A stretch of 64,000 nucleotides of DNA from contig OZ220746.1 in NCBI GenBank assembly GCA_965117025.1, forward strand, positions 1,159,225 to 1,223,224, written 5' to 3'. The position numbers were made by a program, and so were the translations under genes. This stretch comes from Rhodothermales bacterium (GTDB lineage: Bacteria > Bacteroidota > Rhodothermia > Rhodothermales > VXPQ01). This document shows positions 10,918-64,000 of the stretch, piece by piece; position 1 is the first letter of the stretch, and every line of letters starts with the position of its first letter. The notes beneath the pieces were generated by a model. That model worked only from the letters and a program-made list of their open reading frames with translations. It was not told the DNA's origin and searched no databases.

Positions 10918-10995
10918 AGTCCGGATCGGGAGCGTTTTTATGTAATATAAGGGGCTTATAGCGAATAGTTCACATGGAACACGTTGGAGTTATTT

Positions 10996-11004
10996 TGGTA
11001 TAAT
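10996..11004 (+). promoter_or_regulatory. extended -10 promoter candidate (TGgTATAAT) for tnpB, implying a near-leaderless mRNA
   Basis: TGGTATAAT at 10996-11004 ends 7 nt before the tnpB ATG (11012). The -35 region is poor (GGAACA). It lies in the AT-rich left flank of the insertion. Confidence 0.3.
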
Positions 11005-11011
11005 TCTTTGA

Positions 11012-12253
11012 ATGACAAGAGTTTATACATATCGTATTGAGCATTTGACTCCGGCGAAACATTGCCGATTGGAGGCGTTTTTCTCCCACCTGACGTGGCT
11101 GTACAATCAGGGTGTGGAGTATTGCCGCGCCCAGCATGCCGAAGGCGCAAAGACTCCAACGTATTACGATCTGTGCAAGTGGTTGACCGGCAAGCGGGGC
11201 CAAGATATTCGAACTGGTCGGTGGAATGCGTCGTGCCAGCGTTCGGTTCTGAACCGCATCCACCGTGGATACGACAAGTTCTTCCGTGACCACAAGGGTT
11301 TGCCTCGTTACAAGTCTTTTGACCGGGGCGTCCGGTCGTTCGAGACGGAAGCGGCAAAGCCCCGCAAGCGCAAGAACGACAAAGGGCATTACGTACAGAT
11401 CAAGGGATTGGGCCGATTGTCATTTACGGACACTCGCGGCTTTCTCGACGATGCCACGGTCAAGATTGTCCGCGTTGTGCGTACCCCATTGCGCTACGAG
11501 ATACAGCTTGTATGCGACGTACCGGAACCTTCGCGGGTCGTTGACAAGCGCGATGTGGTCGGCATAGACCTGGGAGTGAAGTCGTCTGTAACGCTATCGA
11601 ACGAGGTGCAGTACCGCCCACTCGCCCACGACGACACGCGCCGCAAAAGGCTACAGCGCAAGGTATCCCGCGCCAAATGTGGCGGCAATGGGCGTAAGAA
11701 AGCGAAGGTGCTGCTGGCAAAGGAGAGTAGGCGCATTTCGATTCGCCGCCACAATGCCATTCACCGAATGACGACCGAGATCGTCAAGACGCACTCTGCG
11801 AATCTGGTTCTGGAGGACTTGGAAGTACAGAATATGACCGCATCCGGCGGAAGCCGCAAGCGTGGTCTGAATCGTTCCATGCTACAACAGGCATGGGGAA
11901 AAATCGGAACCCAGTTGATTTACAAGGCTGAGAGCGCCGGAGGCCAGTGCGTACGGGTTCCACCGCATCACACGACGCAGACATGCAGTAATTGTATGAA
12001 TCTGCCCCGTGAGTCCATAGACCTGTCGGTGCGCATCTACGAGTGCGAGCACTGCGGTTATGTAGCGGATCGGGACGTAAATGCGGCACGGAATGTCCGT
12101 CGGAAGGGACTTGACTTCTTCCACCGGGTGGGGCTATCCCCGGAGCGTCAGGCGGAGGCAGCGAAACCGGTAAGATTGCACGGTACTTCGGTACCCGATA
12201 GCACGGTCATGGCGCGGAACCGTAGCATTACGAGCACACAACCTGTCAAGTAA
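11012..12253 (+). CDS. tnpB: TnpB, an IS200/IS605-family (IS1341-like) RNA-guided RuvC nuclease
   Basis: 413 aa. The N-terminus RVYTYRIEHLTPAKHCRLEAFFSHLTWLYNQGVEY resembles the OrfB_IS605 N-terminal pattern. RuvC-I is VVGIDLGV (D186). RuvC-II is LVLEDLEV (E268). The zinc ribbon is C325-x2-C328...C345-x2-C348. RuvC-III is ADRDVNAARNV (D353/D355). Confidence 0.9.
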   Translation: MTRVYTYRIEHLTPAKHCRLEAFFSHLTWLYNQGVEYCRAQHAEGAKTPTYYDLCKWLTGKRGQDIRTGRWNASCQRSVLNRIHRGYDKFFRDHKGLPRYKSFDRGVRSFETEAAKPRKRKNDKGHYVQIKGLGRLSFTDTRGFLDDATVKIVRVVRTPLRYEIQLVCDVPEPSRVVDKRDVVGIDLGVKSSVTLSNEVQYRPLAHDDTRRKRLQRKVSRAKCGGNGRKKAKVLLAKESRRISIRRHNAIHRMTTEIVKTHSANLVLEDLEVQNMTASGGSRKRGLNRSMLQQAWGKIGTQLIYKAESAGGQCVRVPPHHTTQTCSNCMNLPRESIDLSVRIYECEHCGYVADRDVNAARNVRRKGLDFFHRVGLSPERQAEAAKPVRLHGTSVPDSTVMARNRSITSTQPVK

Positions 12254-12263
12254 TGAATATAAG
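12107..12263 (+). ncRNA. putative omega-RNA (reRNA) scaffold overlapping the tnpB 3' end. The boundaries are approximate.
   Basis: Three hairpins are readable in the non-conserved C-terminal tail codons 366-413. They are CCGGG/CCCGG at 12124-12143, GGTAC-TTCG-GTACC at 12182-12195 (a UUCG tetraloop), and ACGGT/ACCGT at 12203-12223. The position matches where omega-RNAs lie in characterised TnpB elements. Confidence 0.4.
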
Positions 12264-12312
12264 TCCCAATGCTTCCATGGACAGCGCTCCAGGTCACTCA
12301 CGTACGAAGAAA

Positions 12313-12543
12313 ATGTGGAAATGGGCGATCCTGATCATCGGCGCCCTCTTTTTTCTTACCGTCCTGCGCGAAGCCATCGACCCGTACGGCGACCAGCCGT
12401 ACATAGAAATCACGCATGGAGACCATGTCCACTATGTACCGCACGATCGGGACCCGAAGGTTTCCATCAGCAAATTTCCCACGGTTCCACCCGGACCGGA
12501 TGAAATCATTACGCCGGAAGGACGCATCGTGCCAAAGGAATAA
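12313..12543 (+). CDS. small single-pass membrane protein with a histidine-triad-like HGDHVHYVPH motif (putative metal binding)
   Basis: The TM segment is WKWAILIIGALFFLTVL, followed by ITHGDHVHYVPHDRD. This resembles the HxxHxH (HGDHYHYIP) zinc-binding triad of streptococcal Pht proteins. The ORF-track start at 12253 overlaps the tnpB stop (TAATG), so the Met at 12313 is preferred. Confidence 0.6.
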   Translation: MWKWAILIIGALFFLTVLREAIDPYGDQPYIEITHGDHVHYVPHDRDPKVSISKFPTVPPGPDEIITPEGRIVPKE

Positions 12544-12586
12544 CGAACCCGACGCGGCGAGGCGCTGGCGAAAAAGGGAAACTTTC

Positions 12587-14818
12587 CTACCACAGCGCCT
12601 TGATCAGGACTTTAACGTTACGCCCCTGCTCAGGCATGATGCTCTTTACTTTCGAAAGATGGTCCCGGTATTCGGCGTTCGTGGCATTCTCCACCCCGAT
12701 ATCGAAGGTGTACAAAATACGACCCAGAGAGAGGTAGTACTGCGCATGCGCCCCGAACACGACATACCCATCGGTCGGCTCCTCGAATTCCCCCAGACGA
12801 TCCTGCCGCCGCGCCGCCTCCGCGGAACCGGACAGCCTGATCTTCCCGCGGGCGTACGCTGCTTCCAGCCGCCCCCGCAAGGGAGGAATGAAGGACATCG
12901 GCTCGTCGTCGTCGATTAGCGTACCCCGGACATACGCGCCCGACCAGGAAAGCATGACGGAAGGCGCCGCCTGCAGCGAAAAGGAAGCTTCCGACCCCGT
13001 CATGCGGACCGACGAACCGGTTTGCTGATATTCCGTCAGCAGGGTGCGCACGTTGAGCCGGCCCGTATTTCTGGGGTAAATGTAATCCTGAATATGGTTT
13101 CGATACGCATTCAGCGACCCGGAGAAACGCGCGCTGCGGTATTCCGCGAACGCTTCGAAGCCCAGGCCCTTTTCGACGCCGAGGTCCGCATTGCCTATTT
13201 CGAAAGCATAGGCCGCCAAATGAGGTCCGGTTGAGAAAAGTTCTTCGATCCCCGGCATGCGAATGGAGCGCACGCCGCCCAGGCCCGCGGAGAAATGGTC
13301 GCCGAATCGCCGCAAGACCCGAAAAGAGCCGGAAACGCCCCCGGTCGTCCGGTTGCGAATCCGTCCGGCGCGCGTTTCCTCGCCCACAGCGAAGCGCCCG
13401 GTGGTGCGGGGACGTACGGCGCGTATATCGTACCGAAGCGCGCCCTGAAGCGACAGGTTCCTCAGATTGATATCCTGATACCGGAACGCCGCGGCCGTCC
13501 ATTCCCGGGAGTTCGGCGTAAACGTAAATCCGCCGGAAGCAAAATCCCGGTGTCCGGCCCAGATACTCGTCAGACTGTTGCTTCTGCGGCCATGGACGCG
13601 GGACAGAATCCGGCCGTAATACGACAGGAGTCCGAACTCAATGCCCAGCGACCCGCTCGCTTCGTATTCCTGATGAAAATACCTCGAAAGCGATGCCTCG
13701 AATTCCAGGTGCGAGAACCGGGGAATCGCATCCAGCAACAGGCCCTTCGCTTTCAGGTAACGACGGGATAACTCGATATCCACGCCGTTCGGATGCGCCC
13801 CGACGAATCCGCCCGGTATGCCGTACCGGGAAGCGTAGTAACTGCCCGAAACACCCGCATGCCCCCACGAACCGATACGGCTCGCGCTGACAGAACCGTT
13901 TCCGGTCGTCAAATCGGTGTTGGCCAGTACCCCGACCGGCGTGGACACGTCTCCCGCATTGCGCAAGCTGCCGTCGGCGCGCACCGCAAAGCCGCCCGCA
14001 GGCGCTTCGACGCTGAACCCGCTCGAAATCCCGTCGTGGGCGGATTGCCCTTGCAGCACGGCCACCACATGCGTCTCCGGCGGCCTGGTCGCAGGCACAT
14101 ATCCGCGGACCGCGTTCACCACGCCGCCCAGCGCGTTCGGCCCGTACAGCAGCGCCGCCGGGCCGCGAACCACCTCAATCCGCTCCGTCATCAGCGGTTC
14201 TATCGCAACCGCATGATCGGCGGACGTGGCGGACAGGTCTCCGGTGCGCCCGCCGTCCTCCAGGACCAGCAGCCGCTCGCCGCCCAACCCGCGCAACACC
14301 GGGCGGGCGGGAGCGGGCCCCATGGATCGCATGGAAATGCCGGGTTCGTTGTCGAGCGTTTCGGCGATCGTCGTTCCGAGATGCTGCCGAAGCCGCTTGC
14401 CCTCCATATCCATATCGGCCTCGCGGAGCGCGACGGACTCGCGTTGCCCGTCCACGAAGACTTCCCCCAATTCAATCGGAGAAGCCGACATGCGCAGCAC
14501 GACGCGAGACGTATCCGAGGCGCCGCCCACCGCGACCTGGCTCGTCAGCGACTCATAGCCTATGCGCCAGGCGGTAAGCGTGTAGACCCCCGGCTCCAGA
14601 AACCGCATCTCGAAACGGCCTTGCCGATCCGTTCTGGAACTGCGGTTGGCGTCTTCCGCCAGCACCTGGGCATGGCGCACGGGTTCTCCGGTTTCCGCAT
14701 CTTCTACGGAGCCCGAGATCACCGCCGTATGCTGGGCTTGCAGCGTCCCGGCGACCGCCATCGCGCAACACGCTGCAAGCCCGAGGCGGCAAGCAAGCGA
14801 GGATGTACTACAACGCAT
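12587..14818 (-). CDS. TonB-dependent outer-membrane receptor with an N-terminal carboxypeptidase-regulatory-like domain
   Basis: 743 aa. Signal peptide, then CarboxypepD_reg-like ISGSVEDAETGEPV...GVYTLTAWRIGY. The plug region contains ISMRSMGPAPARPVLRGLGGERLLVLEDG. A long beta-barrel region ends in the aromatic terminus LIKALW. Confidence 0.9.
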   Translation of the reverse strand: MRCSTSSLACRLGLAACCAMAVAGTLQAQHTAVISGSVEDAETGEPVRHAQVLAEDANRSSRTDRQGRFEMRFLEPGVYTLTAWRIGYESLTSQVAVGGASDTSRVVLRMSASPIELGEVFVDGQRESVALREADMDMEGKRLRQHLGTTIAETLDNEPGISMRSMGPAPARPVLRGLGGERLLVLEDGGRTGDLSATSADHAVAIEPLMTERIEVVRGPAALLYGPNALGGVVNAVRGYVPATRPPETHVVAVLQGQSAHDGISSGFSVEAPAGGFAVRADGSLRNAGDVSTPVGVLANTDLTTGNGSVSASRIGSWGHAGVSGSYYASRYGIPGGFVGAHPNGVDIELSRRYLKAKGLLLDAIPRFSHLEFEASLSRYFHQEYEASGSLGIEFGLLSYYGRILSRVHGRRSNSLTSIWAGHRDFASGGFTFTPNSREWTAAAFRYQDINLRNLSLQGALRYDIRAVRPRTTGRFAVGEETRAGRIRNRTTGGVSGSFRVLRRFGDHFSAGLGGVRSIRMPGIEELFSTGPHLAAYAFEIGNADLGVEKGLGFEAFAEYRSARFSGSLNAYRNHIQDYIYPRNTGRLNVRTLLTEYQQTGSSVRMTGSEASFSLQAAPSVMLSWSGAYVRGTLIDDDEPMSFIPPLRGRLEAAYARGKIRLSGSAEAARRQDRLGEFEEPTDGYVVFGAHAQYYLSLGRILYTFDIGVENATNAEYRDHLSKVKSIMPEQGRNVKVLIKALW

Positions 14819-61101: not shown

Positions 61102-64000
61102 ATGATAAGAAAGTCGCAAATTTCATGCCTGATACTACTCCTTTCGCTGCCAATCACGGCGACAGCGCAGAATGTGACTATATCCGGCTTGGTAACAGAC
61201 ACCGATAACCAGGCGCTTATCGGTGCAAACGTATCCATTCCCGATTGGCTGCTTGGCGCTTCGACAGACATCGAAGGCCGCTATTCTTTTGGAGTGCCTT
61301 CCGATTATGTAGGGGAGTCCGTCGATCTCAGGGTCCAATATCTCGGCTATTCACCGCAGACCCGGGCCGTCACCATCTCGCTCCTGGAAATGACGGAGCA
61401 CTTTGTGCTTATCGAGGATTTTTTCAATCTGGATGAGGTCGTCGTAACAGGAGTTGCTGAAGCAACGCCAAAAAAGAAGCTGGCCTTCACGGTAGATCAG
61501 GTCGATAGAGATCTGGTGGAACTCGCGCCGGCACGCAGTCCGCTTCACGGCCTGCACGGGAAAGTGGCTGGAGCCAGCGTAATGGCTCAGAGCGGGCAAC
61601 CGGGGGACGGCATTTCCGTGCGACTGCGCGGGTCTACCAGCATTTCGGGAAGTTCGCAGCCACTCTATATCGTCGATGGCGTCATTCTCGGAGCCGACCA
61701 GGTCGACATCGATGCACTGGACATCGAAAACATAGAGATTGTCAAGGGGGCTTCCGCATCGTCACTCTACGGATCCCGCGCGCAAAACGGGGTCCTTCAA
61801 ATTTCGACCAAGCGGGGCGATCATATCCCTATAAACCAGACACGCGTAACGATCCGCAATGAGGTCGGCACTAACTTCATGACAAATAATTTTATTCCCA
61901 ATAATTCGCACAACTATCGGACAAATGCTGCCGGAACCTCTTTTGTCGATGCCCATGGGAACGACATCCCTTATGGATCTGCGACCGTCATTGACGGAAG
62001 TACAGCGGTATCCTTTTTTGACAATCCGTATCCGGGTGAAACGTACAACGCGTTCGACGAATTTTTCAAACCGGGTAATACGTGGACCAATTCCATCGCA
62101 ATAAGCCGCAATACGAGGGCTACCAACTTTCTTTTTTCATTTGCGAATCTGACAGAAGAGGGTATCATTGTCGGCCAGAAAGGATACAATCGAAAAAGTC
62201 TTCGCCTTAATATGGATCATCACCTGAAACGTACATTGTCTATTTCACTCTCAAGTTTTTATGCAACCTCTACGCGGGATGCTCCAAATAATGTGGACAT
62301 AAATCCGTTTTTCGGCATTATGTTTACCAGCCCCGCAGTGAGTCTTGCGGAGCGTGACGAAAATGGTGAACTTAAGGTACGCGCCGATCCTTTATCTATT
62401 GAAGACAACCCGCTCTACATTATCGAGAACGTCGACGAAGTCCAAAAACGCTCGCGGATATACGGCAATCTCCGGCAAAGCTGGAAACCCATAGACTGGT
62501 TTGATCTTGAAGCCAATCTGAGTTTCGACCGCTCGGACCGCGACGGTCTGGAGTTTTATGACAAGGGATATCAGCAGATTGGCGACAACAGTAAGGAAGA
62601 GGGCGAAATCGATCGCAGTAATGCCCTGTCCTCCGCCCTGAATGCCAACGTAACGGCTTCCTTTCGCAAGCAATTCGATCGCCTGGTTGCACGCACACAG
62701 TTTCGCTGGGCAAAGGAGGATTTCAGCAATGAGGCGGAATTCATCAGTGGTAGAGGACTGGCGACGGCAGGACTTGCAGATCTTTCCAATGTGAACACCG
62801 ATGATAAAACCATCAGTTCCAGCAGTTCAACGATCCGTTCCGAGGGCTTTTATGGGCTGATAGGCACAGACTATGCCGACCGCTACATCATTGACGCCTT
62901 AGTGCGCCGCGATGGCAGTTCACTGTTCGGCGCGGAGGAGAGGTGGCAAACCTATTTTCGCATCAGCGGCGCATACCGCCTATCGGAAGAAACCTGGTGG
63001 CCTGCCAGGGGGGCGCTTCCTGAATTCAAGCTGCGAGGTTCGTACGGCACCGCAGGCGCACGTCCATGCTTTGAATGCCAATACGAAACATTTTTTCTCT
63101 CCAATGGCCAACTAAGTAAATCGACCCTTGGTAATGAACTGCTGAAACCTGAATTGCAGAAAGAAACCGAACTGGGGCTGGAATTTTCTGTTTGGAATAA
63201 GGCATTTGTCGAATTGATATATGCGGATTCCAGGGTGGAAGATCAGTTGCTGCTCGTTCCATTGTCTGCCTCGGCAGGCTATCAAGGGCAATGGCAAAAT
63301 GCCGGAACCCTCGAATCCAATACGATAGAGGCATCTATCCGTACATCGTTGTTCCGAAATGCTTCCGGTAGCCTGGACATAGGAGTCGTTTTTGACCGCA
63401 CGCGTCAGAAAATCACCGAGTTTGCCCCTCCAGCGTTCCGGGGCGGCCCCAAGAATGCCTTCTATATTCGAGAAGGTGAAATTCTGGGTGCCATGTACGG
63501 CGACAAGTTCCTCACGAATATGGATGAACTGCCTCTGGGCGTTTCAAAAGATCAGTTCCAGGTTAATGATCACGGCTATGTGGTATGGGTCGGTTCGGAT
63601 AACACCTATATGGACGGCATTTCCCAAAGCCTTTGGGGAACCTCCAGCAGCCACATGACGACGCCCTGTGGCGACAAGTCGTACGAATGGGGTATGCCGA
63701 TTCTGTTCGAGAATGAAGAATGCACAGCATTCTCCAGAATTGGCAATACCCTCCCCGACTATAATCTGGGAATAAACACCACATTACGCTGGCGCGGAGT
63801 CACCGTCTATATGCTCTGGAATGCACAGATAGGCGGCGATATATACAACGCTACTGCCCAGTGGGCCTACAGGGATGATCGGCATCGGGATCAGGATCAG
63901 GCAGGTAAGCCTGATGAAGTCAAGAAGACGGCGAATTACATGCAAGCCCTCTACCACGCGAACGGGACAAATAACCACTTCGTCGAAGAAGGCGATTATG
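61102..64000 (+). CDS. SusC/RagA-family TonB-linked outer-membrane receptor (3' end truncated by the window edge)
   Basis: This gene is absent from the ORF track because there is no stop codon inside the window. My hand translation is open from the ATG at 61102 to 64000. It reads MIRKSQISCLILLLSLPITATAQNVTISGLVTD (signal peptide plus CarboxypepD_reg), then DEVVVTG, then the plug motifs ISVRLRGSTSISGSSQPLYIVDGV and IEIVKGASASSLYGSRAQNGVLQISTKRG. Confidence 0.88.
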   Translation, partial: MIRKSQISCLILLLSLPITATAQNVTISGLVTDTDNQALIGANVSIPDWLLGASTDIEGRYSFGVPSDYVGESVDLRVQYLGYSPQTRAVTISLLEMTEHFVLIEDFFNLDEVVVTGVAEATPKKKLAFTVDQVDRDLVELAPARSPLHGLHGKVAGASVMAQSGQPGDGISVRLRGSTSISGSSQPLYIVDGVILGADQVDIDALDIENIEIVKGASASSLYGSRAQNGVLQISTKRGDHIPINQTRVTIRNEVGTNFMTNNFIPNNSHNYRTNAAGTSFVDAHGNDIPYGSATVIDGSTAVSFFDNPYPGETYNAFDEFFKPGNTWTNSIAISRNTRATNFLFSFANLTEEGIIVGQKGYNRKSLRLNMDHHLKRTLSISLSSFYATSTRDAPNNVDINPFFGIMFTSPAVSLAERDENGELKVRADPLSIEDNPLYIIENVDEVQKRSRIYGNLRQSWKPIDWFDLEANLSFDRSDRDGLEFYDKGYQQIGDNSKEEGEIDRSNALSSALNANVTASFRKQFDRLVARTQFRWAKEDFSNEAEFISGRGLATAGLADLSNVNTDDKTISSSSSTIRSEGFYGLIGTDYADRYIIDALVRRDGSSLFGAEERWQTYFRISGAYRLSEETWWPARGALPEFKLRGSYGTAGARPCFECQYETFFLSNGQLSKSTLGNELLKPELQKETELGLEFSVWNKAFVELIYADSRVEDQLLLVPLSASAGYQGQWQNAGTLESNTIEASIRTSLFRNASGSLDIGVVFDRTRQKITEFAPPAFRGGPKNAFYIREGEILGAMYGDKFLTNMDELPLGVSKDQFQVNDHGYVVWVGSDNTYMDGISQSLWGTSSSHMTTPCGDKSYEWGMPILFENEECTAFSRIGNTLPDYNLGINTTLRWRGVTVYMLWNAQIGGDIYNATAQWAYRDDRHRDQDQAGKPDEVKKTANYMQALYHANGTNNHFVEEGDY

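What the first reader, a model, noticed from the sequence alone, without database searches (positions are those of the whole stretch)
10940..12312. Solo, catalytically intact TnpB (OMEGA-type RNA-guided nuclease) island with no transposase partner
The only clearly foreign segment in this housekeeping window is an AT-rich block of about 1.35 kb. It carries a 413-aa ORF with every TnpB hallmark:
- OrfB-type N-terminus (RVYTYRIEHLTPAK...).
- RuvC-I GIDLG (D186).
- RuvC-II LEDL (E268).
- CxxC...CxxC zinc ribbon (C325/C328/C345/C348).
- RuvC-III DRDVNAARN (D353/D355).

I found no Y1 (HUH) TnpA and no serine-recombinase ORF on either strand anywhere in the 64 kb. The element is therefore either non-autonomous or a domesticated nuclease. 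TnpB proteins are established RNA-guided DNA endonucleases and ancestors of Cas12. This copy, from an under-sampled GC-rich lineage that looks like Bacteroidota or Rhodothermota, could have a distinct TAM and guide architecture.
Basis: partly seen in the sequence, partly recalled or inferred. Interest (0 to 1): 0.78.

Follow-up and report, generated by a model that had tools for sequence, protein, structure and literature searches.

The report
Solo TnpB inside IS1595-type transposon ends
This is a real, intact RNA-guided TnpB nuclease gene with its guide-RNA scaffold, but it sits in a 1.3-kb mobile element whose ends are those of a DDE-transposase (IS1595-family) transposon rather than the classical IS200/IS605 type, so it is a less common variant of an already known kind of element.

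Summary
ORF 11012-12253 (+) encodes a 413-aa TnpB with an intact D186/E268/D355 triad and a CxxC…CxxC zinc ribbon. No transposase was found among the 60 ORFs of at least 90 aa called across the 64 kb.

The interpretation needs correcting:
- **Element type.** The element spans 10951-12267 (1,317 bp) and is not IS200/IS605-like. It has terminal inverted repeats (GGGGCTTATA…TATAAGTCCC).
- **Mobility.** Sister copies (up to 92% identical) lie at unrelated sites in other Rhodothermales genomes, flanked by exact 8-bp target duplications.
- **Partner transposase.** The same TIR class bounds a MITE and IS1595-family DDE transposons. In locus L109 an IS1595 transposase gene plus a tnpB moved as one unit with a perfect 8-bp duplication. 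The window copy is therefore a non-autonomous derivative, probably mobilised in trans.
- **Guide RNA.** A covariation-supported ωRNA-like structure (12080-12227) overlaps the tnpB 3' end.
- **Insertion history.** An empty orthologous site shows the element replaced 39 bp of intergenic DNA.
- **Candidate TAM.** The predicted guide matches the empty allele, where ATG lies immediately 5' of it. ATG recurs at this position in 5 of 11 insertion sites.

TnpB within DDE/TIR transposons, and solo copies moved in trans, were described in 2023. The IS1595 partnership is not named in the literature I could search. Interest is moderate.

The parts
10951..12267 (+). Whole mobile element (1,317 bp): left TIR, tnpB, ωRNA-like scaffold and right TIR
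   Evidence: blastn homology to the 92% copies L002/L005 stops at these borders and the flanks are unrelated. End alignments A2/A3. TIR coordinates.
10951..10976 (+). Left terminal inverted repeat, GGGGCTTATAGCGAATAGTTCACATG
   Evidence: 9 of the first 10 bases pair with the reverse complement of the right end, with further scattered matches. Sister clades have perfect 23-bp TIRs (L094, L090). It is the same class as the IS1595 transposon TIR GGGAATTATATACG in L101.
11012..12253 (+). tnpB CDS, 413 aa. Catalytic codons: D186 (11567-11569), E268 (11813-11815), D355 (12074-12076). Zinc-ribbon cysteines at 11984, 11993, 12044 and 12053.
   Evidence: dN/dS of the core is 0.11-0.21.
12080..12227 (+). 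Structured core of the ωRNA-like RNA (8 helices), overlapping tnpB codons 357-405
   Evidence: RNAalifold predicts 41 pairs, 23 with double-sided changes. 95.5% of cells are paired against 40-46% when partners are slid, and 0/500 shuffles reach the observed values. The covariance model gives one hit in the window and hits in non-training relatives. Synonymous divergence is suppressed here.
12228..12267 (+). 3' tail of the RNA scaffold. It includes the right terminal inverted repeat (12242-12267, …AATATAAGTCCC) and the tnpB stop codon (12251-12253).
12268..12287 (+). Predicted guide-encoding flank, AATGCTTCCATGGACAGCGC (host DNA immediately outside the right end)
   Evidence: Position is by analogy with IS605 TnpB ωRNAs (inference). 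The 20 nt are identical in the empty orthologous allele L110, where CATG lies directly 5' of them.
10943..10950 (.). Left flank 8-mer TAATATAA, preceded by ATG. It is not duplicated at the right flank (AATGCTTC, 12268-12275).
   Evidence: The missing duplication is explained by loss of 39 bp of host DNA relative to L110.
12253..12543 (+). Host small membrane-protein gene. Its original start codon was lost, and the right end of the element supplies a new in-frame ATG that overlaps the tnpB stop (TAATG).
   Evidence: L110 ortholog begins MNASMDSAPG…, the window protein begins MNISPNASMDSAPG….

Best explanation
The feature is a 1,317-bp non-autonomous insertion sequence (10951-12267). It carries one protein gene, a nuclease-competent-looking tnpB, and a structured ωRNA-like scaffold that overlaps the tnpB 3' end and runs to the right end of the element.

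**Ends and mobility.** Its ends are imperfect terminal inverted repeats of the IS1595 (Merlin-like) DDE-transposon type. Members of the family make 8-bp target duplications. The element is therefore moved by an IS1595-family DDE transposase encoded elsewhere and acting in trans, not by a Y1 or serine TnpA. This is shown for the family and inferred for this copy.

**Nuclease function.** By analogy with IS605 TnpB (inferred, not shown), the RNA reads out of the right end, so its guide is the adjacent host DNA (AAUGCUUCCAUGGACAGC…). The TnpB-RNA complex would cut alleles that lack the element, where that sequence lies next to a TAM (candidate 5'-(Y)ATG). Recombinational repair would then copy the element in or retain it.

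**This copy.** It landed in the 69-bp spacer between two divergent host genes and replaced 39 bp. It now supplies the start codon of the downstream small membrane-protein gene.
For: **The protein is TnpB with an intact triad**
- Family membership and catalytic alignment.
- Purifying selection on the core, dN/dS 0.11-0.21.

**The element is mobile**
- Copies at 92% identity sit in unrelated contexts, and homology stops at 10951 and 12267-12276.
- The orthologous syntenic locus L110 is empty.

**The ends are of the DDE/IS1595 type**
- Perfect 23-bp TIRs in L094 and L090.
- Exact 8-bp duplications in L002, L005 and L094, in L003+L007 and in L109.
- A 338-bp MITE with a related 25-bp TIR and an exact 8-bp duplication.
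- The IS1595 transposon L101 has the TIR GGGAATTATATACG, matching 13 of 14 bases of the L094 TnpB element.
- In L109, an IS1595 transposase gene (PF12760+PF12762) plus tnpB are enclosed by one TIR pair with the perfect duplication TATTTAAT.
- In L099, a tnpB is recombined with an IS1595 transposase tail.
- The IS1595 family usually makes 8-bp duplications (PMC8101967).

**No Y1 TnpA in the close family.** None occurs in the window or any close-family locus, whereas the same probe finds one beside tnpB in about 28 distant IS605-type relatives.

**The RNA is real**
- Covariation analysis.
- The covariance model hits non-training loci L008, L044 and L040.

**TAM candidate**
- ATG in 5 of 11 sites (P~1e-7) and TG in 8 of 11 (P~1e-8).
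- No mirror-image CAT is seen on the other side of the duplications.
Against: - This particular copy has no target duplication and only about 10 bp of well-matched TIR. It may no longer be mobile.
- No IS1595 transposase lies in the 64 kb, and the rest of the genome could not be searched.
- Expression, the RNA 5' and 3' ends, guide length, TAM and nuclease activity are all inferred.
- The ATG motif could be a transposase target preference rather than a TAM. It is absent from L094, L102 and L109.
- The single-sequence fold is no more stable than shuffles (z = 0.74). The support for the RNA comes from covariation only.
Confidence: 0.75

Rival explanations
1. It is a classical IS200/IS605-family 'IS1341-type' solo tnpB element, moved as single-stranded DNA by a Y1 TnpA (or by an IS607 serine recombinase) encoded elsewhere.
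For: The protein belongs to the TnpB family, and NCBIfam IS200_TnpB scores 169 bits, although that is below its 425-bit cut-off. Distant relatives (<=40% identity) do sit beside Y1 TnpA genes.
Against: - IS200/IS605 and IS607 have neither TIRs nor target duplications (PMC13565253).
- This family has both, and its ends match IS1595 transposons.
- No Y1 gene lies beside any of the close-family copies.
Confidence: 0.05
2. It is a domesticated TnpB that now serves the host, for example as an RNA-guided regulator of the adjacent small membrane-protein/TonB-receptor genes (TldR-like) or as a fixed nuclease.
For: - The tnpB stop overlaps the start codon of the downstream host gene, and the predicted guide equals the first 20 nt of that gene's region.
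- This copy lacks a target duplication.
- The ORF is intact, whereas the sister copy in L005 is a pseudogene.
Against: - The 92%-related ortholog locus L110 lacks the gene.
- Sister copies lie at unrelated sites.
- The catalytic triad is intact, unlike in TldRs.
- In the occupied allele the guide match is preceded by GTCCC, not the candidate TAM, so self-binding is not expected.
Confidence: 0.07
3. It is a stranded, decaying relic. The element was once mobile, but this copy is immobile and functionless and is simply awaiting deletion.
For: - No target duplication, and 39 bp of flanking DNA lost.
- Degenerate TIRs.
- No transposase within 64 kb.
- A sister copy (L005) already carries a stop at codon 41.
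Against: - The ORF is full length with every conserved residue.
- dN/dS between this copy and L002/L088 is about 0.2.
- The RNA helices are intact.
- The other 92% copies have the same degenerate TIRs yet carry perfect, hence recent, duplications.
Confidence: 0.13

Closest known systems
DDE-transposase-associated TnpB branches and trans-mobilised solo TnpBs (Altae-Tran et al. 2023, PNAS, PMC10691335; a 2026 review, PMC13565253, summarises them as ISL2, IS630 and IS1031 associations)
   Same: - TnpB and its ωRNA lie near one end of a transposon bounded by inverted terminal repeats.
- The TnpB 3' end lies within 250 bp of the transposon end.
- Solo copies carry ends nearly identical to those of transposase-bearing elements.
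   Different: The partner here is an IS1595-family (Merlin-like) transposase with 8-bp duplications. 'IS1595' does not occur in that paper's main text, and none of the nine papers that mention both TnpB and IS1595 is about such an association, judging by title and abstract. I could not inspect that paper's figure 4 or supplements, so overlap with one of its unnamed DDE branches is not excluded.
ISDra2 / IS200-IS605 TnpB-ωRNA (OMEGA) systems
   Same: - Same protein family and the same catalytic triad positions.
- The RNA scaffold overlaps the tnpB 3' end and abuts the right end.
- The guide is presumed to come from the flanking DNA.
   Different: - No Y1 TnpA.
- The ends are TIRs rather than subterminal hairpins.
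- Insertions make 8-bp duplications, so an empty site is TAM + 8-mer + flank rather than a scarless TAM junction.
- Only about 25-30% protein identity.
IS1595 family insertion sequences and their passenger-carrying or MITE derivatives (Siguier et al. 2009, as summarised in PMC8101967)
   Same: - Terminal GG(G) TIRs and 8-bp duplications.
- Relatives with a Zn-ribbon + DDE_Tnp_IS1595 transposase share the TIR (L101, L109).
- Passenger genes and MITEs occur in the same TIR class.
   Different: The window element has no transposase at all. Its only cargo is an RNA-guided nuclease and its RNA.
Eukaryotic Fanzor1 elements embedded in DDE transposons
   Same: A TnpB-family nuclease rides in TIR/TSD-type DNA transposons and is often separated from the transposase.
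   Different: The window element is bacterial and compact (413 aa), and there is no evidence of direct relatedness. A Fanzor-Merlin association was not found in the literature searched.

Membership tests
TnpB (RNA-guided endonuclease, OMEGA class) | Sequence membership above curated thresholds (OrfB_IS605 and TNB/Zn-ribbon domains; NCBIfam guided_TnpB) | tested here: met
   PF01385 scores 60.7 bits (cut-off 30.5). PF07282 scores 78.2 bits (cut-off 26.3). NF040570 scores 206 bits (cut-off 100).
TnpB (RNA-guided endonuclease, OMEGA class) | Intact RuvC D-E-D triad at the positions of ISDra2 D191/E278/D361 | tested here: met
   D186/E268/D355 align to those positions and are invariant in 20 relatives.
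TnpB (RNA-guided endonuclease, OMEGA class) | Cognate structured ωRNA overlapping the 3' end of tnpB and reaching the element end | tested here: met
   Eight helices, with 23 of 41 pairs showing compensatory changes, and the controls passed. The covariance model gives hits in non-training relatives. Transcription itself was not tested.
TnpB (RNA-guided endonuclease, OMEGA class) | RNA-guided, TAM-dependent DNA cleavage | not testable with these tools
   Only indirect evidence: a recurrent ATG 5' of the target, and the guide match is intact in the empty allele.
IS200/IS605 family (including the IS1341 group) | No terminal inverted repeats and no target-site duplication; subterminal hairpins; insertion 3' of a fixed tetra- or pentanucleotide | tested here: not met
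   TIRs of up to 23 bp and exact 8-bp duplications. The family definition is taken from PMC13565253.
IS200/IS605 family (including the IS1341 group) | Association with a Y1 HUH TnpA, in cis or in close relatives | tested here: not met
   The Y1 probe finds none in the window or in the close-family loci, with positive controls in about 28 distant loci.
IS607 family | A serine recombinase TnpA; ends without TIRs or duplications, usually terminating in GG | tested here: not met
   No resolvase-type Pfam hit in any window ORF, nor among the genes called in close loci. TIRs and duplications are present.
IS1595-family transposon (non-autonomous derivative) | TIRs beginning with GG and 8-bp target-site duplications | tested here: met
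   Met for the family: with the criterion taken from PMC8101967. For the window copy the TIR is present but the duplication is absent, because 39 bp of flank were lost.
IS1595-family transposon (non-autonomous derivative) | Ends shared with elements that encode a Zn_ribbon_IS1595 + DDE_Tnp_IS1595 transposase | tested here: met
   L101 TIR GGGAATTATATACG against L094 GGGACTTATATACG. The L109 composite moved as one unit.
IS1595-family transposon (non-autonomous derivative) | Actual mobilisation of this element by an IS1595 transposase present in the same genome | not testable with these tools
   Only 64 kb of the genome is available, and it holds no such gene.
TldR / domesticated nuclease-dead TnpB | Inactivated RuvC site and fixed, vertically inherited genomic position | tested here: not met
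   The triad is intact. The ortholog locus is empty, and copies lie at unrelated sites.

The most novel reading that the evidence does not exclude
This TnpB clade has co-adapted with a cut-and-paste DDE (IS1595) transposon. Insertions are retained, or made, where a TAM (5'-ATG) lies exactly at the strand-transfer position 5' of the 8-bp duplication. Every new copy is then automatically armed with a guide (duplication plus flank) against its own empty allele. That would extend TnpB 'restorative homing' from scarless Y1/serine transposons to TSD-making DDE transposons. A recent review considers this rare and mechanistically puzzling in prokaryotes (PMC13565253).
Probability: 0.3. Interest if true: 0.65.

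Novelty: new variant of a known kind. Interest (0 to 1): 0.42.

Why it matters
- **Annotation.** Most annotation pipelines would file this gene as an 'IS200/IS605 accessory protein'. The ends show that it lives in a different transposon superfamily.
- **Evolution.** The association adds IS1595/Merlin-type DDE transposons to the short list of prokaryotic DDE partners of TnpB. That arrangement is the rule for eukaryotic Fanzor1 but rare in bacteria.
- **Biology.** It offers a compact natural system (a 1.3-kb element, a 2.5-kb autonomous composite, and a MITE) for asking what an RNA-guided nuclease does for a transposon that leaves double-strand breaks and target duplications.
- **Practical use.** It yields a 413-aa nuclease with a defined about 190-nt scaffold region, a predicted guide start and a testable short TAM (ATG/NTG).

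Tried and rejected
- **Rfam:** no match in or near the element at gathering or permissive thresholds.
- **Single-sequence RNA fold:** not more stable than shuffles, so only covariation is used as evidence.
- **Logan contig L001:** simply the same sequence, and uninformative for the ends.
- **Metagenome scan with the family profile:** returned only relatives of <=40% identity, mostly classical IS605. It was useless for mapping the ends but useful as a Y1 positive control.
- **First reading of the flank repeats:** I initially read them as IS605-type TAM or guide features. I rejected this once the perfect TIRs were seen.
- **IS1595 'tail' protein search:** gave only 54-96-aa fragment ORFs. One of them led to L101. 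The apparent co-occurrence on a 6,207-bp contig (L100) was not confirmed.
- **Sigma-70 promoter and terminator scan:** at chance level.
- **PHROGs on the 100-kb circular contigs:** only a weak tape-measure hit.
- **Plasmid and phage databases:** no relative above 33% identity.
- **Supplements of PMC10691335:** not held, so the identities of its DDE-1 to DDE-5 branches could not be checked.
- **Not run:** structure prediction and the 1.84-billion-protein search, because the sequence alignment to solved TnpB structures was already decisive.
Full report
**1. The observation**

The window contains a 413-aa ORF at 11012-12253 on the + strand.

- It passes the Pfam thresholds for OrfB_IS605 and the Cas12f1-like TNB (zinc-ribbon) domain.
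- It scores 206 bits on the NCBIfam 'guided_TnpB' model against a cut-off of 100, covering residues 5-365.
- In an alignment with 19 relatives of 47-91% identity, D186, E268, D353, D355 and C325/C328/C345/C348 are invariant.
- phmmer against PDB sequences aligns the protein to ISDra2 TnpB (8bf8/8ex9/8h1j, E 9e-25). D186, E268 and D355 fall opposite D191, E278 and D361. The third catalytic residue is therefore D355, not D353.
- The HTH_OrfB_IS605 model did not hit.
- The 'AT-rich block' is not real. The element has GC 0.55 in a window averaging about 0.56. Only the roughly 100-bp left end dips to 0.46-0.48.

**2. No transposase in the window**

- All 59 other non-overlapping ORFs of at least 90 aa were scanned against Pfam. 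They are housekeeping genes: thrS, pheT, ubiE, def, HU, relA/spoT, the secY-ribosomal operons, EF-G/EF-Tu, ftsH, pyruvate kinase, cysS, trkAH and others. None is a transposase or recombinase.
- A Y1-TnpA probe finds nothing in the window. The probe sequence (IS608 TnpA) was written from memory. It is validated by strong hits directly upstream of tnpB in about 28 distant loci.
- An IS1595 transposase probe also finds nothing.

**3. The element is mobile, and its true borders**

Relatives come from Rhodothermales MAGs. blastn of the window region against the 92%-identical copies in L002 and L005 aligns only 10951 to 12269/12276, and the flanks are unrelated. End alignments and a motif search place the element at 10951-12267 (1,317 bp).

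The orthologous, fully syntenic locus in a close relative (L110; its biotin/lipoyl protein is 92% identical) has no tnpB between the small ORF and the biotin/lipoyl gene. The element is an insertion, not a domesticated resident gene.

**4. The ends are not IS200/IS605 ends**

The left end (GGGGCTTATA…) is the inverted complement of the right end (…TATAAGTCCC).

| Copy | TIR | 8-bp flanks |
|---|---|---|
| L094 (= L004, L096) | perfect 23 bp | AAAGATTT, exact |
| L090 | 23 of 24 bp | ATTCAAGT / ATTCAAAT, 7 of 8 |
| L002 | imperfect, as in the window | AAACTGGC, exact |
| L005 | imperfect, as in the window | AATCTTTC, exact |
| L003 + L007 (one copy split over two contigs) | imperfect | AAACACAT, exact |

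IS200/IS605 and IS607 elements have neither TIRs nor duplications (PMC13565253). Both features are hallmarks of DDE transposition.

**5. Which transposase**

- *MITE.* A 338-bp MITE in L088 has a 25-bp TIR (GGGGATTAYATACAAAAGTTGCCAA) and the exact duplication TATAATTA.
- *L101.* This locus comes from the same sample as L088. It holds a 4.45-kb transposon with a perfect 24-bp TIR (GGGAATTATATACGTGTTTACCCA). The transposon encloses a Zn_ribbon_IS1595 + DDE_Tnp_IS1595 transposase gene, itself split by an IS256-type insertion, plus methyltransferase/HNH cargo. Thirteen of its 14 outermost bases match the TnpB element in L094.
- *L109.* An intact 298-aa IS1595-type transposase gene, a 66-aa ORF and a tnpB (52% identical to the window's) lie head to tail. 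The pair formed by the IS1595 left TIR (1744) and the TnpB-side right TIR (4253) is flanked by the perfect duplication TATTTAAT. The inner IS1595 pair is not. The transposase gene and tnpB therefore moved as one 2,510-bp unit, and the TnpB-side end is a working IS1595-type end.
- *L099.* This locus shows a tnpB whose 3' part has been replaced by the tail of an IS1595 transposase gene.
- *Literature and reach.* The IS1595 family is characterised by 8-bp duplications (PMC8101967). The TIR architecture extends to TnpBs only 34-35% identical to the window's: L010 has a 43-bp TIR and L044 a 22-bp TIR. Other distant relatives (<=40% identity) carry a Y1 TnpA.

I conclude that the window element is a transposase-less member of a TnpB clade that lives in IS1595-type shells and is mobilised in trans. 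This is shown for the family and inferred for this copy.

**6. The RNA**

The last roughly 190 nt of ten family members were aligned.

- RNAalifold predicts 41 pairs in 8 helices, and 23 pairs show changes on both sides.
- 95.5% of cells are paired, against 40-46% when the partners are slid by 1-3 columns. The compensatory-pair count is 23 against 2-9. None of 500 shuffles reaches the observed values.
- In the window the core is 12080-12227 (helices mapped), followed by 40 nt that include the right TIR.
- A covariance model of the core finds one copy in the window. It also detects the same RNA at tnpB 3' ends in relatives not used to build it: L008 at 48 bits, L044 at 39 bits and L040 at 25 bits.
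- The coding signal agrees. The protein core has dN/dS of 0.11-0.21. In the overlapping tail, synonymous change is suppressed (dS 0.44 against 1.30 for window-L094) and dN/dS approaches 1. Selection in the tail is on the RNA.
- Rfam has no matching family.

**7. This insertion, and a candidate TAM**

Compared with the empty allele, the window has lost 39 bp (TAATACTT…GTCATCATG) at the insertion point. This explains the absence of a duplication: the flanks are TAATATAA and AATGCTTC.

The lost segment held the start codon of a conserved small membrane-protein gene (L110: MNASMD…). In the window the right end of the element supplies an in-frame ATG (MNISPNASMD…) that overlaps the tnpB stop as TAATG.

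The 20 nt just outside the right end (AATGCTTCCATGGACAGCGC) would be the guide by analogy with IS605 TnpB. In the empty allele they are intact, and CATG lies directly 5' of them.

Across 11 independent sites, the three bases 5' of the target are ATG in 5 (binomial P about 1e-7) and NTG in 8 (P about 1e-8). L010 adds another ATG. No mirror-image CAT follows the duplications, so this is not a palindromic target preference. The two non-TnpB elements with the same TIR class (the MITE and L101) lack the motif, but two elements are too few to draw a conclusion. I treat 5'-(Y)ATG/NTG as a candidate TAM or a co-adapted insertion preference.

**8. Comparison with what is known**

- Altae-Tran et al. 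2023 (PMC10691335) described six TnpB branches associated with DDE transposases, all with inverted terminal repeats. [quoted passage not shown]
- A 2026 review lists ISL2, IS630 and IS1031 as the DDE partners. It calls the association rare in prokaryotes and mechanistically puzzling.
- 'IS1595' does not occur in the 2023 main text. None of the nine papers that mention both TnpB and IS1595 is about such an association, judging by title and abstract. I could not see the 2023 figure or supplements.
- No relative above 33% identity exists in the annotated plasmid and phage collections.

**9. Verdict**

A solo TnpB alone is commonplace. What is less ordinary is the context: IS1595-type TIRs and 8-bp duplications, an autonomous composite relative, a MITE sibling, a well-supported ωRNA, and a recurrent ATG at the position where a TAM should be.

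I rate it a new variant of a known kind, with moderate interest (0.42). Confidence is 0.75 in the architecture and trans-mobilisation model, and about 0.3 in the TAM-coupled homing reading.

Noticed in passing
window 12251-12280 and 12253-12543: The element's right end supplies a replacement in-frame start codon for the downstream host small membrane-protein gene (HGDHVHYVPHD motif). The ATG overlaps the tnpB stop as TAATG. The original start codon lay in the 39 bp that were lost, so the host gene may now be co-expressed with tnpB.
   Followed up: partly
window 62000-64000: This is the lowest-GC stretch of the window (0.49-0.51). Its only ORFs of at least 90 aa have a third-codon-position GC (GC3) of about 0.4 and no Pfam hit. 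It is compositionally more 'foreign' than the TnpB element.
   Followed up: no
L088 7931-8268: A 338-bp MITE with a 25-bp TIR (GGGGATTAYATACAAAAGTTGCCAA) and the exact 8-bp duplication TATAATTA. It has the same TIR class as the TnpB element and the IS1595 transposons.
   Followed up: yes
L101 1498-5947: A 4.45-kb IS1595-family transposon with a perfect 24-bp TIR. It carries two N6/N4 DNA methyltransferase genes and an HNH domain as cargo. Its transposase gene is split by an IS256-type insertion.
   Followed up: partly
L100 4954-5104: Three identical 29-nt repeats spaced 61 nt apart (32-nt spacers) form a CRISPR-like mini-array. It starts about 5 nt after the stop codon of a distant TnpB (38% identical to the window's), just where that TnpB's guide would lie.
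   Followed up: no
L097, L098 (circular contigs of 98-100 kb at 87-207x coverage) and L006 (100.6-kb contig): Phage-like contigs made almost entirely of unannotated genes, with a weak tape-measure hit. They carry two to five paralogs of this TnpB family. In L097/L098 the gene is tightly packed between ORFs, with a right-end-like TACAAGTCCC but no detectable left TIR.
   Followed up: partly
L006 3948-4025: A 19-nt unit (CAAGGACATACACATATCG) is repeated 4.1 times at 100% identity, duplicating the first codons of that tnpB.
   Followed up: no
L005 4001-5241 and L005 1-1009: The 92% sister copy in L005 has a stop at codon 41 and is a pseudogene. The same locus also holds the 3' part of a second, L094-type TnpB element, and an IS1595 right-end remnant near 2850.
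   Followed up: partly
L110 4695-5585 versus window 12543-12587: The orthologous locus has two extra ORFs (124 and 149 aa, no Pfam hits) between the small ORF and the TonB-dependent receptor. The window lacks them, so a second indel difference lies next to the insertion site.
   Followed up: no
one search hits P0121-P0189: The C-terminal approximately 55 aa of the IS1595 transposase recurs in public data as 69 separate short ORFs (54-96 aa), with no full-length protein among the nearest hits. This suggests many truncated or interrupted IS1595 copies in these communities.
   Followed up: partly
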